Of a stretch of DNA of 9,772 bases, positions 2,856-9,772 are shown piece after piece (position 1 is the stretch's first letter; every line of letters begins with the position of its first letter). This DNA is from a virus (Duplodnaviria > Heunggongvirae > Uroviricota > Caudoviricetes), in IMG/VR virus record IMGVR_UViG_2606217100_000002, one strand, 5' to 3'. A program made the translations under genes and the position numbers. A model generated the notes under the pieces. It worked only from the letters and a program-made list of their open reading frames with translations. It was not told where the DNA came from and searched no databases.

Positions 2856-3074
2856 TCAAAGAGAGAGCGCCACCTGTCCTGATTTCATTGGATGCGGCTG
2901 AACCGGATTTGACTCTTTGGGCGTTGCAATCGAACGAACAAAAGTTTCATGGGTAACAAAAGTATGGCTGCAGTTAATGTTCTGGCACTGGTTGTAACGC
3001 TCTTTGGTCAATGAAGATACCTGAAAACTGCTGCGAGTATGGGCGGCACTTCCACACAGTGGGCAAATCATCAT
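2856..3074 (-). CDS. ogr: Ogr/Delta-family zinc-finger late-gene transcriptional activator
   Basis: About 72 aa from ATG at 3074 (GGGAGA RBS 8 nt upstream); C-x2-C ... C-x4-C zinc-binding pattern (CPLCGSAAH ... CQNINCSHTF) resembling P2 Ogr; sits downstream of D as in P2. The tracked ORF extends to a GTG at 3107, which seems less likely. Confidence 0.85.
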   Translation of the reverse strand: MMICPLCGSAAHTRSSFQVSSLTKERYNQCQNINCSHTFVTHETFVRSIATPKESNPVQPHPMKSGQVALSL

Positions 3075-3164
3075 TTTTCGAGTTCTCCCCATTTTTGCTA
3101 AATTCACAATAATGATACCGCATTATTCCATTTTGCAAACTTAAAAGTTCTCCATTGCGAAGAA

Positions 3165-4265
3165 TCATTCCATTTCGAAATCATCAATCCTCACTTCAAG
3201 CTCCAGACTGGTCGTAAAACCATTATCCGGGCTGACGGTATGTGTCAGAGTCGTAATGGTCCATTCCGCATCATCTATCGGCTGTTTAAAGCCACTGACT
3301 TTCACTGGCATTTCCGTGTAGAGATCTGCCCGCCCTTCCGCCAGTTGTAGCGAGAATGACGCAACGCCGCGTTGCAGGCGTTCCCACTGCATTTTTGCCG
3401 CTCGTTCGGCGTTGCTCCGGTTGGCATAAGTGCGATTAAGTACCAGCACGTTTTCATCCGTCCCCACCAGGTAATCGCCCTGCTTCGCTTCCGGCTCTTT
3501 CTTCTGCTTCTTGGTCCTGCGATTACGCTTCACTGTAGTGCTTTCTTTCTTCGCAGGTTCGCGGGTATGCAACCAGCTGGCAATTACGCCCGTGTAGGCT
3601 CCGCGATCCGCCAGGGTAAAGCGGTGACTGTCGCCGTCCTTGCGTGTGATAGTGATCACCGGCAGTGGTTTACCGCTGGCACTTTTACCCTGTCCCTGCC
3701 GGATGAATAACAGATTGCTATTTTTCACCGACGCAATAGCACCGTACTGGCGCGCCAGCCGCATCAGAAAACTGCCGTCACTCTCATTAGTCTGGTCTAT
3801 ATGATCCACGGGTTTATCCGACAGGTCTTTACCCAGTGCCATCTTCAGTTTGTGACGCGCAGCTATTTCCTTCACCACTTCCCCGACCGTGGTCTTGTGC
3901 CACGATTTTTCACGGCGGGTATTCAGCGTTTCCCGAAAATCAGCACTTCGCGCCCGGATGGTCAGGCGGTCCGGTGCGCCAGTGTGTTCAATCTCGTCCA
4001 CCGTGAATGCCCCTTTCGGGAAAAGCGGCTGCCCCTTCCAGCCCAGCGCCAGCGTAATGACCGCACCACGGCGCGGCAGCACGATTTTTCCGTCGGCGTC
4101 GTCCAGCTCCAGATCAAGCTGGTCTGCTTCAAAGCCCCGGTTATCCGTCAGCGTCAGCCCCATCAGGCGGTTGTCCAGCACAGTGGTGATATCCCTGCCT
4201 TCAATACTGATGCTGAATGCCGGAGTTTTGTTACCTTTGTTAAGCAGTTCAGAGCTGAAATTCAC
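3165..4265 (-). CDS. gpD: P2 gpD-like tail protein (late control gene D family)
   Basis: 366-aa ORF immediately upstream of ogr, the gpD position in P2; start overlaps the upstream gene stop in an ATGA arrangement (translational coupling); GC-rich phage-type composition. Confidence 0.8.
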   Translation of the reverse strand: MNFSSELLNKGNKTPAFSISIEGRDITTVLDNRLMGLTLTDNRGFEADQLDLELDDADGKIVLPRRGAVITLALGWKGQPLFPKGAFTVDEIEHTGAPDRLTIRARSADFRETLNTRREKSWHKTTVGEVVKEIAARHKLKMALGKDLSDKPVDHIDQTNESDGSFLMRLARQYGAIASVKNSNLLFIRQGQGKSASGKPLPVITITRKDGDSHRFTLADRGAYTGVIASWLHTREPAKKESTTVKRNRRTKKQKKEPEAKQGDYLVGTDENVLVLNRTYANRSNAERAAKMQWERLQRGVASFSLQLAEGRADLYTEMPVKVSGFKQPIDDAEWTITTLTHTVSPDNGFTTSLELEVRIDDFEME

Positions 4266-4747
4266 GACAGCAGCCCTCCCACCGTTTTACTGATATCGCT
4301 TAATGCAGACGTTGCCGTATCCTGCAGATTATTCAGTTGCGTACTGAGATCACCGAACATATCGGACAGGGATTCATCCACCCGTTTGAGCGACAGGGTG
4401 AACTCAATCCGGCGCGGCATACCGTCGCGGAAAAACTCCGTTTTAGTCAGATTCAGTCCCTCAATCACATACATGCCGTAAATCGTGCCACTGCCTTCAA
4501 TCAGGGGCCATGCTTTTCCCTGTTCTGCCATCTGCTCCAGAGCCAGCAACGACAGCCTGCCGCCCGTTATCTCCGGCATAAGAACACCAGAAAGCGTCAG
4601 CATGTCGTTGTCCGGTCCCAGAAACTGCGTGGACGGACGACGGTTTACCCGGCTGTTTGCCGCATGTCGCCAGCTGCGTTGATACTGCAGTTCCTGATAC
4701 GGAACGGTGCGCAGCATAAACACGTACAATCCCAGCACCATCATCAT
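4262..4747 (-). CDS. gpU: P2 gpU-like tail protein
   Basis: 161-aa ORF between the T remnant and D, matching P2 order T-U-D; ATGA overlaps at both ends (4744-4747 and 4262-4265). Confidence 0.78.
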   Translation of the reverse strand: MMMVLGLYVFMLRTVPYQELQYQRSWRHAANSRVNRRPSTQFLGPDNDMLTLSGVLMPEITGGRLSLLALEQMAEQGKAWPLIEGSGTIYGMYVIEGLNLTKTEFFRDGMPRRIEFTLSLKRVDESLSDMFGDLSTQLNNLQDTATSALSDISKTVGGLLS

Positions 4748-5994
4748 GCGTCGTAACCCCCCTGATCGCTGTAGTTACTCCTGGCTTTTGCCTTCAGCCT
4801 GCGTTCACGTTCATCAAGCTGGCGGGCCACCTCCCGCGCAATATCCTGCGCACTTTGTCCAGGCTGCGTCTGGATGATGATCTGCATCGGTGCCTCAATC
4901 CTGTAAACGGGCGGCACAGTGGCTGCGCGACTCACCATCGCTTCTCCACCTTTCGCGGGAAGTGCCAAAGGGTGCAACGGTGGAAGCTCTGCTGGCGCGG
5001 CAGCAACGCCCATCATTCCGGCAACAACGGCAGCCAGTGCAGCTGTATTTCTCCGGCTGGTCACATTTGCCGGGCCATTAACAATTTCCGGCCCGTTTTC
5101 ACCGACGATGCCAAACTGCCCGCGCGGGATATAGCCGCCGCTGTCATACATCCCCGCAAAGCCATATCCCCATGACGGAAAACCACCCGATGGCATCATC
5201 ACTTTACCGTCTGCATTCACCGTCGCAGTTTGCTGACGCGTCACGCTTTCCGGCAGTTTTGCCTTTGCGGCCTCTTTACTGACAATGCCGAGCTTCTCCA
5301 GCAACCAGGAAACGCCGGATTTCAGGGAGTCCAGCGGATGCATGACCATATTCAGCCCTTCCGCCAGTGCCTCCCCGAATCGTCGCCCCATTGCCGCTGC
5401 GCTCTGCAGTTCGGCAGAGGTCGACTTAACGGGCGTCAGCAGATCAGTAAACCAGCCCCACAGCGCCTGTACTTTGTCGCCAATCCACTGAAACACAGGC
5501 TTAAGTGGTTCGAATGCAGCACTGATGGGACCTGCCGCCGCTTTGAATCCTTCCACCACGCCACCGATAAATGCGGTGATGGGTTGCCAGTATTTCCAGA
5601 CAACCAGCGCCACGCCCGCCAGTGCAGTAACCACAAGACCTATCGGACTGAGCAGAGCACCTACCGCACCTGCTGCAACACGCCCGATCTCTGCAGTTGC
5701 GCTCATGACGTAATGCGGCAGTTTCTCTTTTGCTACCTCATTAATCGGTACACATGGCAGACAATGAATCTGTGCCAGAAAACCATCTACCAACGTTGAA
5801 TCTTCAGTCAGATCGGTAAGCAGCCAGATTTCTGGTGCGGTTAATAAATGAGGTTGAGCTGGGTTCAGCTTGTTCCGCAGAATCTGCACATTCATGCCCG
5901 CACGTTCTGCCAGTTGCACCAGATTGTGGCGCAGTGCGAATGCACGACAGGCTTCATCAAAATGTGGATGTTTGGAAACTTGGTAATCAAACAT
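4744..5994 (-). CDS. chimeric ORF: N-terminal ~100 aa of a 186 CII-like regulator fused in frame to the C-terminal ~300 aa of a tail tape-measure protein (gpT remnant)
   Basis: From ATG at 5994 (GAGGTG RBS upstream) the first ~100 aa ([19 protein letters not shown] ... [25 protein letters not shown]) resemble phage 186 CII family regulators; the remainder is Gly/Ala-rich hydrophobic sequence typical of the C-terminal part of P2-type tape-measure proteins and is followed by U and D. The tracked ORF start at 6048 would overlap the upstream gene. Confidence 0.62.
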
Positions 5995-6026
5995 GGTCGA
6001 CACCTCTGATGTATCCCAAAATGGAA

Positions 6027-6248
6027 CTAGTTGAATACAACATTGCAATCAGTAAGTGCATCAACGGTAAGAGCAGCAAGGTTGATCATTACCTTTTCTC
6101 TTTTCTTGTCTTTACGAAGACGATGCCGAGGAATGCGACCATCCGCCAACATATCGTTGATTGTGTCGATTGAAAGACCAGTAAGTTCGCTATAACGCTC
6201 GATTGTGACGTGTGGCGTATTCAGAGTTATTGAAATGTTAGGGGTCAT
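6027..6248 (-). CDS. Apl/Cox-like small DNA-binding protein (excisionase / lytic-switch regulator)
   Basis: 73-aa ORF from ATG at 6248 (AGGAG 10 nt upstream); first gene of the leftward operon, divergent from cI and followed by the cII-like gene (the apl position in 186); helix-turn-helix-like segment [25 protein letters not shown]. The tracked start at 6365 would overlap cI. Confidence 0.55.
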
Positions 6249-6298
6249 GATGCAACATCTCCTATTGGCTTGTGGTGAGCCTGTAGTAATCGTGACAA

Positions 6299-6314
6299 GT
6301 ACCCAATTGGGTAC
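6299..6314. promoter_or_regulatory. perfect 16-bp palindromic operator GTACCCAATTGGGTAC in the lysis/lysogeny switch
   Basis: Perfect inverted repeat in the cI-apl intergenic region, located at about +1 to +16 of the predicted leftward early promoter and 30 bp upstream of the cI start. Confidence 0.5.
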
Positions 6315-6321
6315 AAAACTG

Positions 6322-6350
6322 ATACTAGGATCGCAAAAGAGATATGTCAA
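6322..6350 (-). promoter_or_regulatory. early (lytic, pR/Pe-like) sigma-70 promoter driving apl/cox and the cII fusion
   Basis: On the minus strand TTGACA (plus coordinates 6345-6350, overlapping the cI start codon), a 17-nt spacer, then TAGTAT (6322-6327); predicted start near 6314 at the edge of the palindrome. Confidence 0.5.
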
Positions 6351-6940
6351 CATCAAAGTACCCAAGTGAGATCAAAATAAATCCCAATAAAGGTGGTAAG
6401 GCTGCGATTGAGCGATTAGTCGAAGCCTATGGCTTTACGACACGACAGGCTTTAGCTGATCACTTGGAAGTATCAAAAAGCACACTAGCGAACAGGTATT
6501 TGCGGGATACATTTCCTGCTGACTGGATAATCCAATGTGCTCTTGAAACAGGAACCTCCCTCAAATGGTTAACTACCGGACAAGGCCTTAAGCAAAGCTC
6601 GCTGACAGCAGCTACAGAAGAGCTTGTTAAGTTTCGCCTTGCCGCAGGCAAAATGATTGAAGACGGTTCATATGTCTTCGATTCATCATTTCTTCCTGCA
6701 AACCTTTCATCACCAATTGTTGTTCAGGATGGACTCGTCACATACATTTGTGATCAAAAATTTTCTGAAGTACTTGATGGAAACTGGTTAATCAATATCG
6801 ACGGAACCTATTCCATTCGAAAAATCACAAGGCTTCCTAAAGGAATGATTAAAATTACAACAGCAGAGAATAGCTTTGAATGTGCATTTTCTGATATTGA
6901 AGTGGTTGCTTGTATAAGAAGTACAATAGTCTCGAATTAA
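6344..6940 (+). CDS. cI: phage CI-type immunity repressor (186 CI-like: N-terminal HTH plus C-terminal oligomerisation domain)
   Basis: 198-aa ORF; N-terminal helix-turn-helix region (GFTTRQALADHLEVSKSTLANRYL) typical of the phage CI repressor family; divergent from the apl/cox-like gene and upstream of int as in P2/186. Confidence 0.8.
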   Translation: MSTSKYPSEIKINPNKGGKAAIERLVEAYGFTTRQALADHLEVSKSTLANRYLRDTFPADWIIQCALETGTSLKWLTTGQGLKQSSLTAATEELVKFRLAAGKMIEDGSYVFDSSFLPANLSSPIVVQDGLVTYICDQKFSEVLDGNWLINIDGTYSIRKITRLPKGMIKITTAENSFECAFSDIEVVACIRSTIVSN

Positions 6941-6960
6941 TATAGTAAAAGGATTTTAAA

Positions 6961-8637
6961 ATGAATTCATTTGCCATCGTTATACTCTTATTAGCATTTC
7001 TCGCCCCTGTTCTAGCTGTAATATTATTTAAACAAAGTAAAAAACACAAAGCGGCTATAGATAACCTGACAGCTAACAACATAGCCCTTTCTAACCAACT
7101 GATTGAAAATCAAGAAAAACTAGCACAGACCGTACGAGAATTATCAGAGCTTGAAGGGCGAGCAGCACCATTGTGGCAATACGAAGAATTGCACAGCGCA
7201 GTAATGGATGCAGAGAATAAGATAAAAAATGCGGACTCAATAGCCAAGCAAAAAATAGATGAAGCCCAAATTAAGGCGGCTAAAACAGTAAACGAAGCAA
7301 ATTATCAAGCTCAGATGACAATAAGCAACGCTAATAGCGAAGCTATAGCAATCACCAAAGACGCTCGCGATGCACGCCTGAAAGCCAAAGAACGTCTTGA
7401 TAATGCTAATAATAAAGCAAATGAGCTAATCTCAAATGCTAATGACAATGCAGTAAAAATTATTTCTGATGCAGAAGAAAGAGCAAAGGAGATTGCTGGT
7501 TCAGCATATGAAGCTAAAGAGTTTGCAGAAAAATATGAAGCAGTTGCAAAATCAATGAAAAATAAAATTGAAGGTTATGGTGATGAATGGATCATCCCTA
7601 ACCGTAGTGTACTTGATGAGCTGGCAGAAAATTATGAATTTACAGATGCAGGCAAGGAATTACAAAAAGCCAGAGAGTTAACCAAATCATTAATAAAAAC
7701 TAATAAAGCTGCTTCGTGTGATTATGTTGAGCAAAACAGGCGTAATACTGCCATAAACTTTGTTTTGGATGCCTTCAATGGAAGAGTTGACAGTATTTTA
7801 TCAAAAGTCAAACACAACAATTTTGGAAAACTTTCCCAAGAAATAAAAGATGCATTTCAACTAGTAAATTACAATGGCTCTGCCTTTAGGTCCGCAAAAA
7901 TAAGTGACATCTATCTTCAGGCAAGACTCAACGAGCTAAAATGGGGTGTAGCAGTTAATGAAATTATGCTCGAAGAAAAAGAAGAGCAAAGAAGGATTAA
8001 AGAACAGCTTCGTGAAGAGGAAAGAGCTCGTAGAGAATATGAAAAAGCGATAAAAGAAGCTGAAAAAGAAGAAAAAGCTATTCAGCAAGCTATAAATAAA
8101 GCAACGAAAGAACTTATGCTTGCAAATGAAGAACAACGCTTAGCTTTAGAGCAAAAAATAGCTGAACTACAGTTAAAATATGAAGAAGCTGAAGCTAAAA
8201 ATCAACGAGCTATTTCTATGGCTCAACAAACCAGATCAGGCTACGTCTATATCATTAGTAATATTGGTTCATTTGGCGAAGATGTATATAAAATTGGAAT
8301 GACACGCCGCCTTGAACCACTTGATCGTGTTCGTGAACTCGGAGATGCTAGTGTTCCTTTTTCGTTCGATGTTCATGCGATGATTTATAGTGATGATGCA
8401 CCATCATTAGAAAACCATCTGCATAAAGTTTTCAACGAAAAGCAGGTCAATAAAATTAACTCACGAAAAGAGTTTTTTAACGTAAATTTAAAAGAAATCA
8501 AATCAGTTATTGAAGACATGAACATCAACGCCCACTGGACAATGTTTGCAGAGGCGAAAGAATATAGAGAGTCTCTAGCTATTGAGCAGGAGCGCAAAGC
8601 AGCCACTTCCGCCAACGATGAACTACATGTTGCTTAG
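6961..8637 (+). CDS. cargo (moron) protein: N-terminal transmembrane anchor, extended coiled coils, DUF4041-like middle region and C-terminal T5orf172/GIY-YIG-type nuclease domain; candidate anti-phage defence effector
   Basis: 558-aa ORF with AAAGGA RBS 8 nt upstream of ATG, 20 bp after the cI stop. Residues 5-23 hydrophobic (FAIVILLLAFLAPVLAVILF) followed by KQSKKHK. Two long K/E/A-rich coiled-coil stretches. C-terminus GYVYIISN...YKIGMTRR...RVRELGDASVPFSFDVHAMIYSDDAPSLENHLHKVF...RKEFFNV fits the GIY-(10-11)-YIG, Arg, Glu pattern of T5orf172/GIY-YIG nucleases. Markedly AT-rich relative to the flanking prophage genes. Confidence 0.6.
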   Translation: MNSFAIVILLLAFLAPVLAVILFKQSKKHKAAIDNLTANNIALSNQLIENQEKLAQTVRELSELEGRAAPLWQYEELHSAVMDAENKIKNADSIAKQKIDEAQIKAAKTVNEANYQAQMTISNANSEAIAITKDARDARLKAKERLDNANNKANELISNANDNAVKIISDAEERAKEIAGSAYEAKEFAEKYEAVAKSMKNKIEGYGDEWIIPNRSVLDELAENYEFTDAGKELQKARELTKSLIKTNKAASCDYVEQNRRNTAINFVLDAFNGRVDSILSKVKHNNFGKLSQEIKDAFQLVNYNGSAFRSAKISDIYLQARLNELKWGVAVNEIMLEEKEEQRRIKEQLREEERARREYEKAIKEAEKEEKAIQQAINKATKELMLANEEQRLALEQKIAELQLKYEEAEAKNQRAISMAQQTRSGYVYIISNIGSFGEDVYKIGMTRRLEPLDRVRELGDASVPFSFDVHAMIYSDDAPSLENHLHKVFNEKQVNKINSRKEFFNVNLKEIKSVIEDMNINAHWTMFAEAKEYRESLAIEQERKAATSANDELHVA

Positions 8638-8694
8638 CAATGTATGTTTCATAGTAATCACACATTGATTACTGGTTACATATACAGTTAAATT

Positions 8695-8719
8695 TAGCCC
8701 TCTGATATGAGGGCTTTTT
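8695..8719 (+). terminator. intrinsic terminator after the cargo gene, abutting the int start codon
   Basis: Stem AGCCCTC (8696-8702) / GAGGGCT (8709-8715), 6-nt loop, then a T-run to 8719; int ATG at 8720. The GAGGG of the 3' stem half doubles as the only candidate Shine-Dalgarno for int. Confidence 0.55.
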
Positions 8720-9772
8720 ATGGCAGTACGAAAACTAACCACAGGGAAATGGCTTTGCGAATGTTACCCCGCCGGACGAAGTGGGCGTCGTGTGCGTAAA
8801 CAATTCGCTACCAAAGGCGAAGCACTGGCTTTTGAGCGCCACACGATGGAAGAAACCGAAGCAAAGCCCTGGCTGGGTGAATCAGTGGATCGTCGAACAC
8901 TGAAAGACGTGGTTGAGCTATGGTTCAAACTACATGGTAAATCTCTGACAGCTGGGCAGCATGTCTATGACAAATTGCTGTTGATGGTTGACGCTCTGGG
9001 CAATCCTCTTGCAACCGATCTCACCTCTAAAATGTTTGCCCACTATCGAGATAAACGCCTGACAGGCGAGATCTACTTCAGCGAGAAATGGAAGAAAGGA
9101 GCAAGCCCGGTCACCATTAACCTGGAGCAAAGCTATCTAAGTAGTGTTTTTAGCGAACTATCCCGTCTGGGCGAATGGTCGTATCCGAACCCACTGGAGA
9201 ACATGCGAAAATTCACCATCGCAGAAAAAGAGATGGCATGGCTTACCCATGAGCAGATTGTTGAATTGCTGGCTGATTGCAAACGTCAGGACCCAATTCT
9301 GGCACTGGTAGTTAAGATATGCTTAAGCACAGGCGCACGCTGGCGTGAAGCCGTAAATCTTACCCGCTCACAGGTGACCAAATACCGAATTACCTTTGTC
9401 AGAACGAAGGGGAAGAAAAACAGAAGCATCCCTATCAGTAAAGAGCTTTACGAAGAGATCATGGCGCTTGATGGGTTCAATTTCTTCACAGACTGCTATT
9501 TTCAATTTTTATCCGTGATGGAAAAAACGTCTATCGTGCTCCCTCGCGGTCAACTCACACACGTTCTGCGCCATACGTTTGCGGCGCACTTCATGATGTC
9601 GGGTGGAAACATTCTGGCCTTACAAAAAATTCTCGGACACCACGATATAAAAATGACTATGCGTTACGCACATCTGGCACCGGATCATCTAGAAACGGCG
9701 CTCCGTTTCAATCCTCTGGCAACGCTACCAAGTGGCGACAAAGTGGCGGCAGCGGTTGGCATTACCCCGTAA
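8720..9772 (+). CDS. int: P2-type tyrosine integrase (site-specific recombinase)
   Basis: 350-aa ORF; N-terminus MAVRKL.. and overall sequence resemble P2 Int; catalytic-region motifs LSTGARWREA (Arg), HVLRHTFAAHF (His-x-x-Arg) and MTMRYAHLAP (Tyr nucleophile); last gene before the presumed attachment site. Confidence 0.93.
   Translation: MAVRKLTTGKWLCECYPAGRSGRRVRKQFATKGEALAFERHTMEETEAKPWLGESVDRRTLKDVVELWFKLHGKSLTAGQHVYDKLLLMVDALGNPLATDLTSKMFAHYRDKRLTGEIYFSEKWKKGASPVTINLEQSYLSSVFSELSRLGEWSYPNPLENMRKFTIAEKEMAWLTHEQIVELLADCKRQDPILALVVKICLSTGARWREAVNLTRSQVTKYRITFVRTKGKKNRSIPISKELYEEIMALDGFNFFTDCYFQFLSVMEKTSIVLPRGQLTHVLRHTFAAHFMMSGGNILALQKILGHHDIKMTMRYAHLAPDHLETALRFNPLATLPSGDKVAAAVGITP
9733..9754 (+). 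repeat. 22-bp direct repeat, right copy (TGGCGACAAAGTGGCGGCAGCG), inside the 3' end of int
   Basis: 21 of 22 identity with 2834-2855 in the same orientation; encodes int residues ..GDKVAAA..; 18 nt before the int stop. Confidence 0.5.

What the first reader, a model, noticed from the sequence alone, without database searches (positions are those of the whole stretch)
6941..6960. Cargo gene is embedded in the lysogenic cI-int transcript
Only 20 bp separate the cI stop from the cargo start, with a good RBS and no terminator, so the gene should be co-transcribed with the repressor from the lysogenic promoter and expressed whenever the element is in the repressed prophage state. That is the expression logic expected for a prophage-encoded host-protective gene rather than for a lytic-cycle function.
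Basis: inference. Interest (0 to 1): 0.5.

Follow-up and report, generated by a model that had tools for sequence, protein, structure and literature searches.

The report
Defence gene in prophage repressor operon
A gene of a known anti-phage nuclease family (SNIPE/PD-lambda-1) sits 20 bases behind the repressor gene of a 186-like prophage, so it is very probably made together with the repressor while the prophage is dormant. This arrangement has been described before, but the integrase gene behind it appears to have its own DNA-damage-controlled switch rather than simply sharing that transcript.

Summary
The cI stop is at 6938-6940 and the cargo ATG at 6961. The 20-nt spacer carries a Shine-Dalgarno sequence (AAAGGA, 6948-6953) and no stable hairpin.

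The cargo is a 558-aa homologue of SNIPE/PD-lambda-1 (PADLOC 3e-120), with an N-terminal transmembrane helix, DUF4041 and a GIY-YIG/T5orf172 nuclease domain. The prototype cuts siphovirus DNA during injection.

In phage 186, cI and int overlap, so this gene is an insertion. Prophages with the same integrase carry at least 23 different cI-int intervals. They include Old, PDC-S20, PDC-M11, PDC-M18 and many unknown genes. Almost all are co-oriented with cI, and most start 0-28 nt after it. This is a defence hotspot, as already described for Vibrio K139-like phages (cI-orf2-glo-int operon).

Co-transcription with cI from the 186-type pL promoter is therefore well supported by inference.

The "cI-int transcript" part is doubtful. 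All relatives keep an ~80-nt leader before int. It holds a strong LexA box (8670-8689, 23.8 bits) between promoter-like hexamers, then a terminator-like hairpin (8696-8715) that contains the int ribosome-binding site.

Verdict: a new member of a known kind, of modest interest. The int leader is the more original point.

The parts
6230..6258 (+). Predicted lysogenic promoter pL: -35 TTGAAA (6230-6235), 17-nt spacer, -10 CAACAT (6253-6258). It lies face to face with pR.
   Evidence: Positional homology to the annotated 186 pL (TTGCGA-N17-CATGAT). Both hexamers are invariant in 9 loci from 7 genera. It is only an 8/12 consensus match.
6322..6350 (-). Predicted early lytic promoter pR (TTGACA-N17-TAGTAT), overlapping the cI start codon.
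   Evidence: 10/12 consensus match. Same position as 186 pR. Nearly invariant across genera (one T-to-C change in the -10 of L006).
6027..6248 (-). apl/cox-like excisionase/regulator gene, first gene of the pR operon.
   Evidence: ORF; annotated Cox in the identical phage vB_EcoM-813R9; no Pfam hit.
6344..6940 (+). 186-type CI immunity repressor gene (198 aa).
   Evidence: Pfam Phage_CI_repr 8e-32 and Phage_CI_C 3.5e-27. dN/dS 0.04-0.09 against relatives.
6941..6960 (+). The finding: a 20-nt intercistronic spacer with the cargo Shine-Dalgarno sequence AAAGGA (6948-6953).
   Evidence: Spacing and Shine-Dalgarno sequence are conserved in all SNIPE-bearing loci.
6961..8637 (+). Cargo: SNIPE/PD-lambda-1 homologue, 558 aa. 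Transmembrane helix at residues 5-23 (nt 6973-7029), DUF4041 at residues 267-322 (nt 7759-7926), GIY-YIG/T5orf172 at residues 427-520 (nt 8239-8520).
   Evidence: PADLOC PD-Lambda-1 3.4e-120 over residues 106-550. Pfam DUF4041, T5orf172 and MUG113. Hydropathy and E484. RefSeq name 'SNIPE associated domain-containing protein'. dN/dS 0.06. GC about 35% against about 47% in int.
8640..8665 (.). Inverted repeat ATGTATG-N12-CACACAT, marking the right-hand boundary of cargo exchange. Function unknown.
   Evidence: The conserved block starts here in all 23 interval classes. Not repeated near att.
8665..8693 (+). Promoter-like hexamers TTGATT (8665-8670) and TTAAAT (8688-8693), 17 nt apart, reading into int.
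   Evidence: The TTGA of the -35 is invariant; relatives have TTGACC or TTGACA. In the window this is a weak 8/12 match (my count from the sequence; below the 9/12 cut-off; one search lists the same -35 with an 18-nt spacer and TAAATT). No conserved minus-strand alternative was found by reading the sequence.
8670..8689 (.). LexA box TACTGGTTACATATACAGTT, filling the promoter spacer.
   Evidence: 23.8 bits on a position weight matrix of E. coli LexA sites. Next best in the window is 9.3; the maximum over 200 shuffles is 18.4. Half-sites ACTG/CAGT are invariant with a variable middle. Positive control: the 186 p95 site scores 27.1. The only other strong box in the complete phage is at the tum-like operon. 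Kept with Int homologues down to about 78% identity.
8696..8719 (+). Terminator-like hairpin AGCCCTC-TGATAT-GAGGGCT (8696-8715) followed by a T run. The int Shine-Dalgarno sequence GAGGG (8709-8713) lies in the 3' arm.
   Evidence: Top terminator-like hit. -13.3 kcal/mol, z -3.1. Present in all relatives in two sequence variants. 95% of cells paired, with one C:G to U:A compensatory change.
8720..9772 (+). Tyrosine integrase gene (350 aa, complete; the stop is at the window end).
   Evidence: Pfam Int_N 3e-32 and Phage_integrase 7e-22. 54.5% identical to 186 Int. rcdA follows in relatives.

Best explanation
The 20-nt stretch is the intercistronic spacer of a two-gene lysogenic operon, cI-SNIPE, in a 186-like prophage. 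In a lysogen, CI represses the strong convergent pR. This frees the weak pL (6230-6258) to transcribe cI and, without interruption, the SNIPE homologue, which is translated from its own Shine-Dalgarno sequence. The CII-dependent establishment promoter would feed the same message after infection. [quoted passage not shown] By analogy with the prototype, it cuts incoming siphovirus DNA during injection, protecting host and prophage. The message then meets a conserved hairpin plus U-run directly before int. This probably terminates much of the transcription and hides the int ribosome-binding site in whatever reads through. int has its own LexA-box promoter, so integrase is probably boosted by the SOS response, together with the phage's Tum-like antirepressor operon. 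The junction works as an insulated cargo slot that is swapped among related phages. Steps shown: the sequence anatomy, conservation, homologies and hotspot variability. Steps inferred: promoter use, co-transcription, termination, LexA control and the anti-phage activity of this homologue. My sub-probabilities are 0.8 for co-transcription with cI, 0.65 for LexA control of int, and 0.5 for the hairpin stopping most read-through.
For: Anatomy and the lack of structure in the spacer. The spacing and Shine-Dalgarno sequence are conserved across 7 genera, while the one candidate internal promoter (TTGAAG-19-TACAAT, 6897-6927) is not conserved (CACAAC elsewhere). The pL and pR hexamers are homologous in position to the annotated 186 promoters and almost unchanged across genera (one substitution, in pR -10), with the switch region 96% identical. 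The 186 record states that pL is inhibited by convergent pR and activated by CI repression of pR. In 164 of 5426 complete E. coli genomes cI and SNIPE occur as one block, and this cI is never found without SNIPE. The two genes diverge in step. At least 23 cI-int interval classes share one Int. About 25 cargo genes are co-oriented against 1 opposed, and most first genes start 0-28 nt after cI. Known defence systems are among the cargo: Old 9e-235, PDC-S20, PDC-M11A/B, PDC-M18A/B. K139 has an annotated PL operon cI-orf2-glo-int with a mapped start site. Cargo identity rests and PMC13190303. The int leader rests.
Against: No transcript data exist. pL is only an 8/12 consensus match. A 9/12 promoter-like match lies in the cI 3' end of the E. 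coli variants. The prototype PD-lambda-1 works from its own short upstream region, so the family does not inherently depend on a repressor promoter. The int-leader hexamers are weak in the window (8/12). A transcription start inside the hairpin is a prediction only. Hairpin covariation is slight (one compensatory pair). Int must also be made during establishment of lysogeny, so the hairpin cannot be a complete block.
Confidence: 0.6

Rival explanations
1. One reading: one pL transcript covers cI, cargo and int, as in 186 and K139. It supplies integrase in the lysogen. The hairpin is only a translational or stability element, and the LexA box is incidental or a minor addition.
For: 186 and K139 have cI-int operons with abutting or overlapping genes. 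All three genes are co-oriented. Int must be produced from pE/pL-type transcription during establishment. The 7-bp stem is not an exceptionally strong terminator.
Against: A GC-rich stem plus a T run sits 4 nt before the int ATG, with the Shine-Dalgarno sequence inside the stem. It is conserved in two sequence variants and with Int homologues down to about 78% identity. The LexA box scores like a genuine site and is one of only two in the whole phage. Relatives whose cI abuts int lack the leader altogether.
Confidence: 0.25
2. The cargo has its own constitutive promoter inside the 3' end of cI (TTGAAG 6897-6902, 19-nt spacer, TACAAT 6922-6927). It is therefore expressed independently of the immunity switch.
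For: A 9/12 match. The prototype PD-lambda-1 was active when cloned with at most 282 bp of its own upstream DNA in a vector without a promoter. AT-rich DNA often carries spurious promoters.
Against: The 19-nt spacer is poor. The -10 is CACAAC in the other six genera, although the 20-nt gap and Shine-Dalgarno sequence are kept. The standard scan found no plus-strand promoter between 6344 and 8429. Twenty-odd unrelated cargo types all abut their cI genes.
Confidence: 0.1
3. The gene is a silent or decaying passenger, or a lytic-cycle function, in a defective prophage.
For: The window's prophage is a deletion remnant (cII fused to the tape-measure gene). The cargo is AT-rich (35% GC) and could be silenced by H-NS.
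Against: The ORF is intact, with dN/dS about 0.06 and 82-100% identity across many genera. The same block is present in complete phages. The gene is oriented with cI and opposed to the lytic operon. The family is shown to act before phage DNA entry (PMC13190303).
Confidence: 0.04

Closest known systems
Vibrio phage K139 lysogenic operon cI-orf2-glo-int, and the K139-like cI-int hotspot of Rousset et al. 2022 (PMC9122126)
   Same: A P2-related phage with face-to-face PR/PL. Accessory genes, including the exclusion gene glo, lie between cI and int in the same orientation and are transcribed from PL. Rousset et al. describe this junction as a defence hotspot.
   Different: In K139 the genes overlap right through to int, with no leader, LexA box or hairpin. 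The cargo families differ. The hosts are Vibrionaceae, not Enterobacteriaceae.
Coliphage 186 pL operon (cI-int)
   Same: Homologous CI, CII, Apl and Int. The same convergent pR/pL layout, with pL hexamers at homologous positions. SOS-inducible through a LexA-controlled tum operon.
   Different: 186 cI and int overlap by 1 nt, with no cargo. Here they are 1779 nt apart, and int has its own leader with a LexA box and hairpin, which is absent from 186.
SNIPE / PD-lambda-1 of E. coli ECOR26 (Vassallo 2022, PMC9519451; Saxton 2026, PMC13190303)
   Same: The same domain order: N-terminal transmembrane helix, coiled coil, DUF4041, GIY-YIG/T5orf172. Near full-length match to the PADLOC model.
   Different: 558 aa against 500 aa, with about 70 extra residues in the variable N-terminal region. 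The prototype was cloned with its own upstream region and is not described as part of a cI operon. Activity and phage range of this homologue are untested.
Phage lambda cI-rexA-rexB immunity operon (my own knowledge, not checked here)
   Same: Defence genes sit directly downstream of the repressor gene and are expressed from the maintenance promoter in lysogens.
   Different: An unrelated phage, repressor and defence mechanism. The lambda int gene is elsewhere.
P2-like defence hotspots (gpA-gpQ old/tin site; Z/fun site; 'integrase to primase' 8% class of PMC13586616)
   Same: Variable defence cargo between conserved phage genes. An Old homologue is found here at the cI-int site.
   Different: The hotspot here is resolved to the cI-int junction of one Int lineage, with cargo abutting cI. 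The papers read here do not discuss its transcription.
LexA-repressed integron integrase promoters (PMC3108266)
   Same: A LexA box overlapping the promoter of a tyrosine recombinase gene, tying recombination to the SOS response.
   Different: An integron integrase, not a phage integrase. There is no upstream operon or hairpin arrangement.

Membership tests
SNIPE / PD-lambda-1 defence system | Match to the family profile over most of its length | tested here: met
   PADLOC PDLC03976 3.4e-120, residues 106-550 against profile positions 36-481 of 491.
SNIPE / PD-lambda-1 defence system | Single N-terminal transmembrane helix, with the rest of the protein cytoplasmic | tested here: met
   Hydropathy peak of 3.16 at residues 5-23, followed by KQSKKHK. 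No other hydrophobic segment. Topology itself was not tested.
SNIPE / PD-lambda-1 defence system | Central DUF4041 domain | tested here: met
   Pfam PF13250 3.1e-12, residues 267-322.
SNIPE / PD-lambda-1 defence system | C-terminal GIY-YIG (T5orf172) nuclease with the catalytic Glu (E414 in the prototype) | tested here: inconclusive
   T5orf172 9.7e-18 and MUG113 3.7e-20. GYVY and YKIG motifs are present. E484 lies at the position expected from the +70 domain offset. No direct alignment to the prototype sequence was possible.
SNIPE / PD-lambda-1 defence system | Blocks siphovirus infection by cutting DNA during injection; associates with ManYZ and the tape-measure protein | not testable with these tools
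   Known only for the prototype (PMC13190303).
186/K139-type lysogenic operon | CI-family repressor transcribed from pL, face to face with pR | tested here: met
   CI domains. pR 10/12. pL hexamers at the 186-homologous position and invariant across genera. Promoter activity was not tested.
186/K139-type lysogenic operon | int directly abutting the preceding gene of the operon, with no intervening signals | tested here: not met
   An 82-nt leader with a LexA box, promoter-like hexamers and a terminator-like hairpin lies between the cargo and int.
186/K139-type lysogenic operon | A single transcript covering cI through int | not testable with these tools
   Needs RNA data.
Prophage defence hotspot | Diverse, unrelated cargo between the same conserved flanks | tested here: met
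   At least 23 interval classes, 393-2964 nt, next to Int that is at least 99% identical in the 80 IMG/VR loci. Three further E. coli examples at the same chromosomal site.
Prophage defence hotspot | Known defence systems among the cargo | tested here: met
   SNIPE, Old (9e-235), PDC-S20, PDC-M11A/B, PDC-M18A/B and an OLD/AriA-like ATPase.
LexA-repressed promoter | High-scoring CTG-N10-CAG box overlapping the promoter elements | tested here: met
   23.8 bits, against a median of 18.5 for known sites and 18.4 for the best of 200 shuffles. The box spans the -35/-10 spacer. The matrix was built from sites recalled from memory and validated on the annotated 186 site.
LexA-repressed promoter | LexA binding and SOS induction of the downstream gene | not testable with these tools
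   Needs a band-shift assay, lexA(Ind-) or mitomycin C experiments.
Intrinsic terminator | GC-rich stem-loop followed by a U run, conserved in structure | tested here: met
   7 bp with 5 GC pairs, then TTTT (five T counting the last stem base); -13.3 kcal/mol. Two sequence variants both fold. 95% of cells paired, one compensatory pair. Termination efficiency is unknown.

The most novel reading that the evidence does not exclude
In this integrase lineage the ancestral cI-int operon has been split into an insulated cargo slot. Whatever is inserted after cI is expressed from the lysogenic promoter. A conserved hairpin then ends the message and masks the int ribosome-binding site. A LexA-repressed promoter, whose predicted start lies inside the 5' arm of that hairpin, produces int mRNA that cannot form the hairpin. 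Integrase would thus be moved from lysogenic to SOS control. That would explain why so many different defence genes can be swapped in without disturbing integration or excision.
Probability: 0.35. Interest if true: 0.55.

Novelty: new member of a known kind. Interest (0 to 1): 0.35.

Why it matters
The locus ties a defence gene to the immunity switch. Any cell that keeps the repressor also keeps the nuclease. Even this deleted, non-inducible remnant should go on protecting its host as long as cI and pL survive.

It also resolves the coarse "integrase to primase" hotspot of P2-like phages to a precise slot with defined boundaries. That slot gives a ready list of uncharacterised candidate defence genes.

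If the int leader works as proposed, it is a compact example of how a phage rewires integrase control to make room for cargo. It would also be a natural insulator design.

Tried and rejected
Rfam scan of 5900-9772: only a sub-threshold RyhB match at 8654-8722 (28.5 bits against a gathering score of 55, E 0.023) and a CRISPR-repeat match. I judged both to be chance matches, the RyhB one probably driven by the hairpin and U run.

Internal promoter in the cI 3' end: found at 9/12 but not conserved.

Minus-strand promoter using the LexA box: reading the sequence gave no conserved hexamers.

ATGTATG/CATACAT as Int arm-type sites: not repeated near att.

P2 C-int gap (115 nt): a different hairpin without a U run and no LexA box, so the leader is not a general P2-like feature.

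cI search in species-representative genomes: most hits were Xenorhabdus/Photorhabdus cI homologues with no Int relative nearby, which are uninformative for this junction.

PDB sequence search with the cargo: no hit.

Homologue search: the top 120 hits were all close 558-aa relatives, so the 500-aa prototype was not retrieved for direct alignment.

First attempt to count hairpin pairs on alignment A1 failed and the two leader variants are out of register there. I redid it on a gap-free alignment of one variant.

Literature searches for a LexA-controlled int in P2/186-like phages found nothing in the held library.

Full report
**Context**

The window runs from the E. coli genes grxA, ybjM and ybjL into a 186/P2-like prophage. 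The phage genes are ogr (2856-3107, -), D (3165-4265, -) and U (4262-4747, -). Next comes an ORF (4744-6048, -) that joins the N-terminal part of CII (Pfam CP76, 4e-37) to the C-terminal part of a tape-measure protein. Then follow an apl/cox-like gene (6027-6248, -), cI (6344-6940, +), the cargo (6961-8637, +) and int (8720-9772, +). The prophage is therefore a deletion remnant. The same cI-cargo-int block occurs at 99.9% identity in the complete phage vB_EcoM-813R9 and at 95.7% in Klebsiella phage KP12. It is present in 164 of 5426 complete E. coli genomes.

**Checking the observation**

- cI ends with TAA at 6938-6940 and the cargo starts at ATG 6961.
- The spacer TATAGTAAAAGGATTTTAAA carries AAAGGA 7 nt before the ATG.
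- The scan finds no terminator-like site there.
- RNA 6925-6990 folds no better than shuffled sequence.
- In loci from seven enterobacterial genera the gap is 20 nt (19 in one) and the Shine-Dalgarno sequence is unchanged. Synonymous sites of both flanking genes are saturated between genera, with pS 0.6-0.8.

**What the cargo is**

- It matches the PADLOC PD-Lambda-1 models over nearly their full length (3.4e-120).
- It has Pfam DUF4041 and T5orf172/MUG113 (GIY-YIG) domains.
- It has one strongly hydrophobic N-terminal segment, residues 5-23.
- Newer RefSeq records call it "SNIPE associated domain-containing protein".

PD-lambda-1 was found by functional selection (PMC9519451). It was later renamed SNIPE: a membrane-anchored nuclease that cuts lambda DNA during injection, associates with ManYZ and the tape-measure protein, and is constitutively at the membrane (PMC13190303).

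The protein here is 558 aa against 500 aa for the prototype. Both domains are shifted by +70 residues, which places the extra length in the N-terminal region that the paper reports as highly variable. E484 falls where the prototype's catalytic E414 would map, but I could not align the two directly.

The gene is under strong purifying selection, with dN/dS about 0.06. It is widespread in Enterobacteriaceae.

**It is an insertion in a hotspot**

- In 186, cI and int overlap by one base.
- In Dagavirus and Cartapus, whose Int is about 54% identical, cI and int are 2-3 nt apart.
- I fetched 80 viral contigs whose Int is at least 99% identical to the window's, three E. coli loci at the same ybjL/rcdA site, and seven loci from other genera.
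- The cI-int interval in these falls into at least 23 classes, 393 to 2964 nt long.
- PADLOC recognises Old (9e-235), PDC-S20, PDC-M11A/B, PDC-M18A/B and an OLD/AriA-like ATPase among the cargo. Many others have no Pfam or PADLOC hit.
- About 25 cargo genes are co-oriented with cI and int, and one is opposed (L008).
- The first cargo gene usually starts 0-28 nt after cI. The last ends 70-90 nt before int.
- Each cI immunity type (43-56% identical to one another) travels with its own cargo. This particular cI is never seen without SNIPE in E. coli.

This is a known kind of thing. Rousset et al. describe a cI-int defence hotspot in K139-like Vibrio phages. The K139 record annotates a PL operon cI-orf2-glo-int with a mapped start site, where glo is an exclusion gene. 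[quoted passage not shown]

**Promoters**

- pR is a 10/12 match on the minus strand at 6350-6322.
- Alignment with 186 places pL at TTGAAA (6230-6235), N17, CAACAT (6253-6258). This corresponds to the annotated 186 pL, TTGCGA-N17-CATGAT.
- The whole switch region is 96% identical across seven genera; both pL hexamers and the pR -35 are invariant, and the pR -10 has a single substitution in one locus.
- The 186 annotation states that pL is inhibited by convergent pR and activated when CI represses pR.
- On the plus strand between cI and the end of the cargo, the standard scan finds no promoter before 8429.
- A laxer scan finds TTGAAG-19-TACAAT at 6897-6927, but the -10 reads CACAAC in the other genera.

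Co-transcription of the cargo with cI from pL, and from the CII-dependent promoter after infection, is therefore the best-supported reading. It remains an inference.

**What lies between cargo and int**

The roughly 80 nt before int are conserved in every class, whatever the cargo. The block contains, in order:

- an inverted repeat, ATGTATG...CA(T/C)ACAT;
- a -35-like TTGAyy (window 8665-8670);
- a 17-nt spacer;
- a -10-like TTAAAT (8688-8693);
- the hairpin AGCCCTC-TGATAT-GAGGGCT (8696-8715), followed by TTTT and the int ATG.

The spacer is filled by TACTGGTTACATATACAGTT (8670-8689). On a matrix built from E. coli LexA sites (recalled from memory) it scores 23.8 bits. The next best site in the window scores 9.3, the best of 200 shuffles scores 18.4, and the median for known sites is 18.5. 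The matrix recovers the annotated LexA site of 186 p95 at 27.1 bits. In the complete phage vB_EcoM-813R9 it finds only two strong boxes: one before the tum-like "SOS induction modulator" operon and this one. The 186 cI-int region and the P2 C-int region have none. The half-sites ACTG and CAGT are invariant while the middle varies. The box persists with Int homologues down to about 78% identity.

The hairpin is the top terminator-like hit, at -13.3 kcal/mol and z -3.1. It exists in two sequence variants that both fold. It shows a C:G to U:A compensatory change. The int Shine-Dalgarno sequence GAGGG lies in its 3' arm. The start predicted from the -10 (about 8699-8701) falls inside the 5' arm, and a transcript beginning at 8700 folds weakly (-4.9 kcal/mol).

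My reading is as follows. Transcripts arriving from cI-cargo form the hairpin and are terminated or left untranslatable for int. Transcripts from the LexA-controlled promoter cannot form it. This last step is a hypothesis.

**Verdict**

So is the central idea: a host-protective gene expressed with the repressor, with alternative cargo in relatives. The phrase "cI-int transcript" probably does not describe this lineage. The operon more likely ends before int, and int appears to be under SOS control.

Nothing about the cargo or its placement is new in kind. SNIPE is characterised, cI-int hotspots are described, and K139 glo and lambda rexAB (my own knowledge) are precedents. The conserved LexA-box and hairpin leader of int, and the list of unannotated cargo genes, are the parts worth following up. 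I found no description of such an int leader in the held literature. That is absence from one library, not proof of novelty.

Noticed in passing
window 8640-8719: Conserved int leader: a LexA box (8670-8689) between promoter-like hexamers, then a terminator-like hairpin (8696-8715) containing the int Shine-Dalgarno sequence. It is present in all relatives of this Int lineage down to about 78% identity, and absent from 186, P2, Dagavirus and Cartapus.
   Followed up: yes
window 4744-6048 (-): The prophage is a deletion remnant. One ORF fuses the CII N-terminus to the C-terminus of the tail tape-measure protein (junction near 5662), putting the U, D and ogr tail/late genes directly downstream of the pR operon. 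This junction is seen in at most 3 of 5426 complete E. coli genomes.
   Followed up: partly
L042 2577-3512, L043 2559-3497, L080 4176-5114, L095 4311-5252 and others: Many cI genes at this locus encode 292-318-aa proteins with a second, tandem N-terminal helix-turn-helix domain in front of a complete 186-type CI.
   Followed up: partly
L060 6623-6814, L045 6621-6812, L073 5394-5576, L100 4994-5197: A 60-67-aa Cys-rich ORF with a signal-peptide-like N-terminus lies 5-15 nt after cI in more than 40 loci. It occurs alone or in front of a PDC-S20 gene and has no Pfam or PADLOC hit.
   Followed up: no
L083 5945-6919; L043 3508-4497; L076 5445-6911; L095 5255-6911; L107 5205-6910; L112 4408-5472; L007 10311-11240: These cargo genes in the cI-int slot have no PADLOC hit (those tested) and no convincing Pfam hit; L107 was not scanned against Pfam, and L043 has two weak Pfam matches below the curated cut-offs. 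They are candidate uncharacterised defence genes, sitting beside SNIPE, Old, PDC-S20, PDC-M11 and PDC-M18.
   Followed up: partly
L008 10406-11266 (-): The only cargo gene found in the opposite orientation. It is 286 aa, has no family hit, and lies between SNIPE and int in a Citrobacter locus.
   Followed up: no
L010 12586-14563: A second, partial cI followed by a full SNIPE gene lies downstream of int. This suggests tandem or neighbouring related prophages.
   Followed up: no
L011-L037: cI homologues (43-48% identical) are conserved in about 27 Xenorhabdus/Photorhabdus species, with no Int relative within 8 kb. Their context was not examined.
   Followed up: no
L127 5027-7002: Phage Cartapus keeps cI abutting int. 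It carries a RES-domain gene and an exonuclease gene between int and ogr instead, an alternative cargo site on the other side of int.
   Followed up: no
window 8640-8665: The inverted repeat ATGTATG-N12-CACACAT marks where conservation with other cargo classes begins. Its function is unknown, and it is not repeated near att.
   Followed up: partly
L001 6900-6935: A tandem direct repeat AACCTAACTTATTGTTTT (two copies) lies just downstream of int. These could be Int arm-type sites of attR.
   Followed up: no
window 8654-8722: A sub-threshold Rfam RyhB match (28.5 bits against a gathering score of 55), which I attribute to the hairpin and U run and judge to be chance.
   Followed up: yes
E. coli genome hits H16 and H70: IS elements (ISVsa5, IS1) are inserted inside the cI-SNIPE-int block in some strains.
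   Followed up: no
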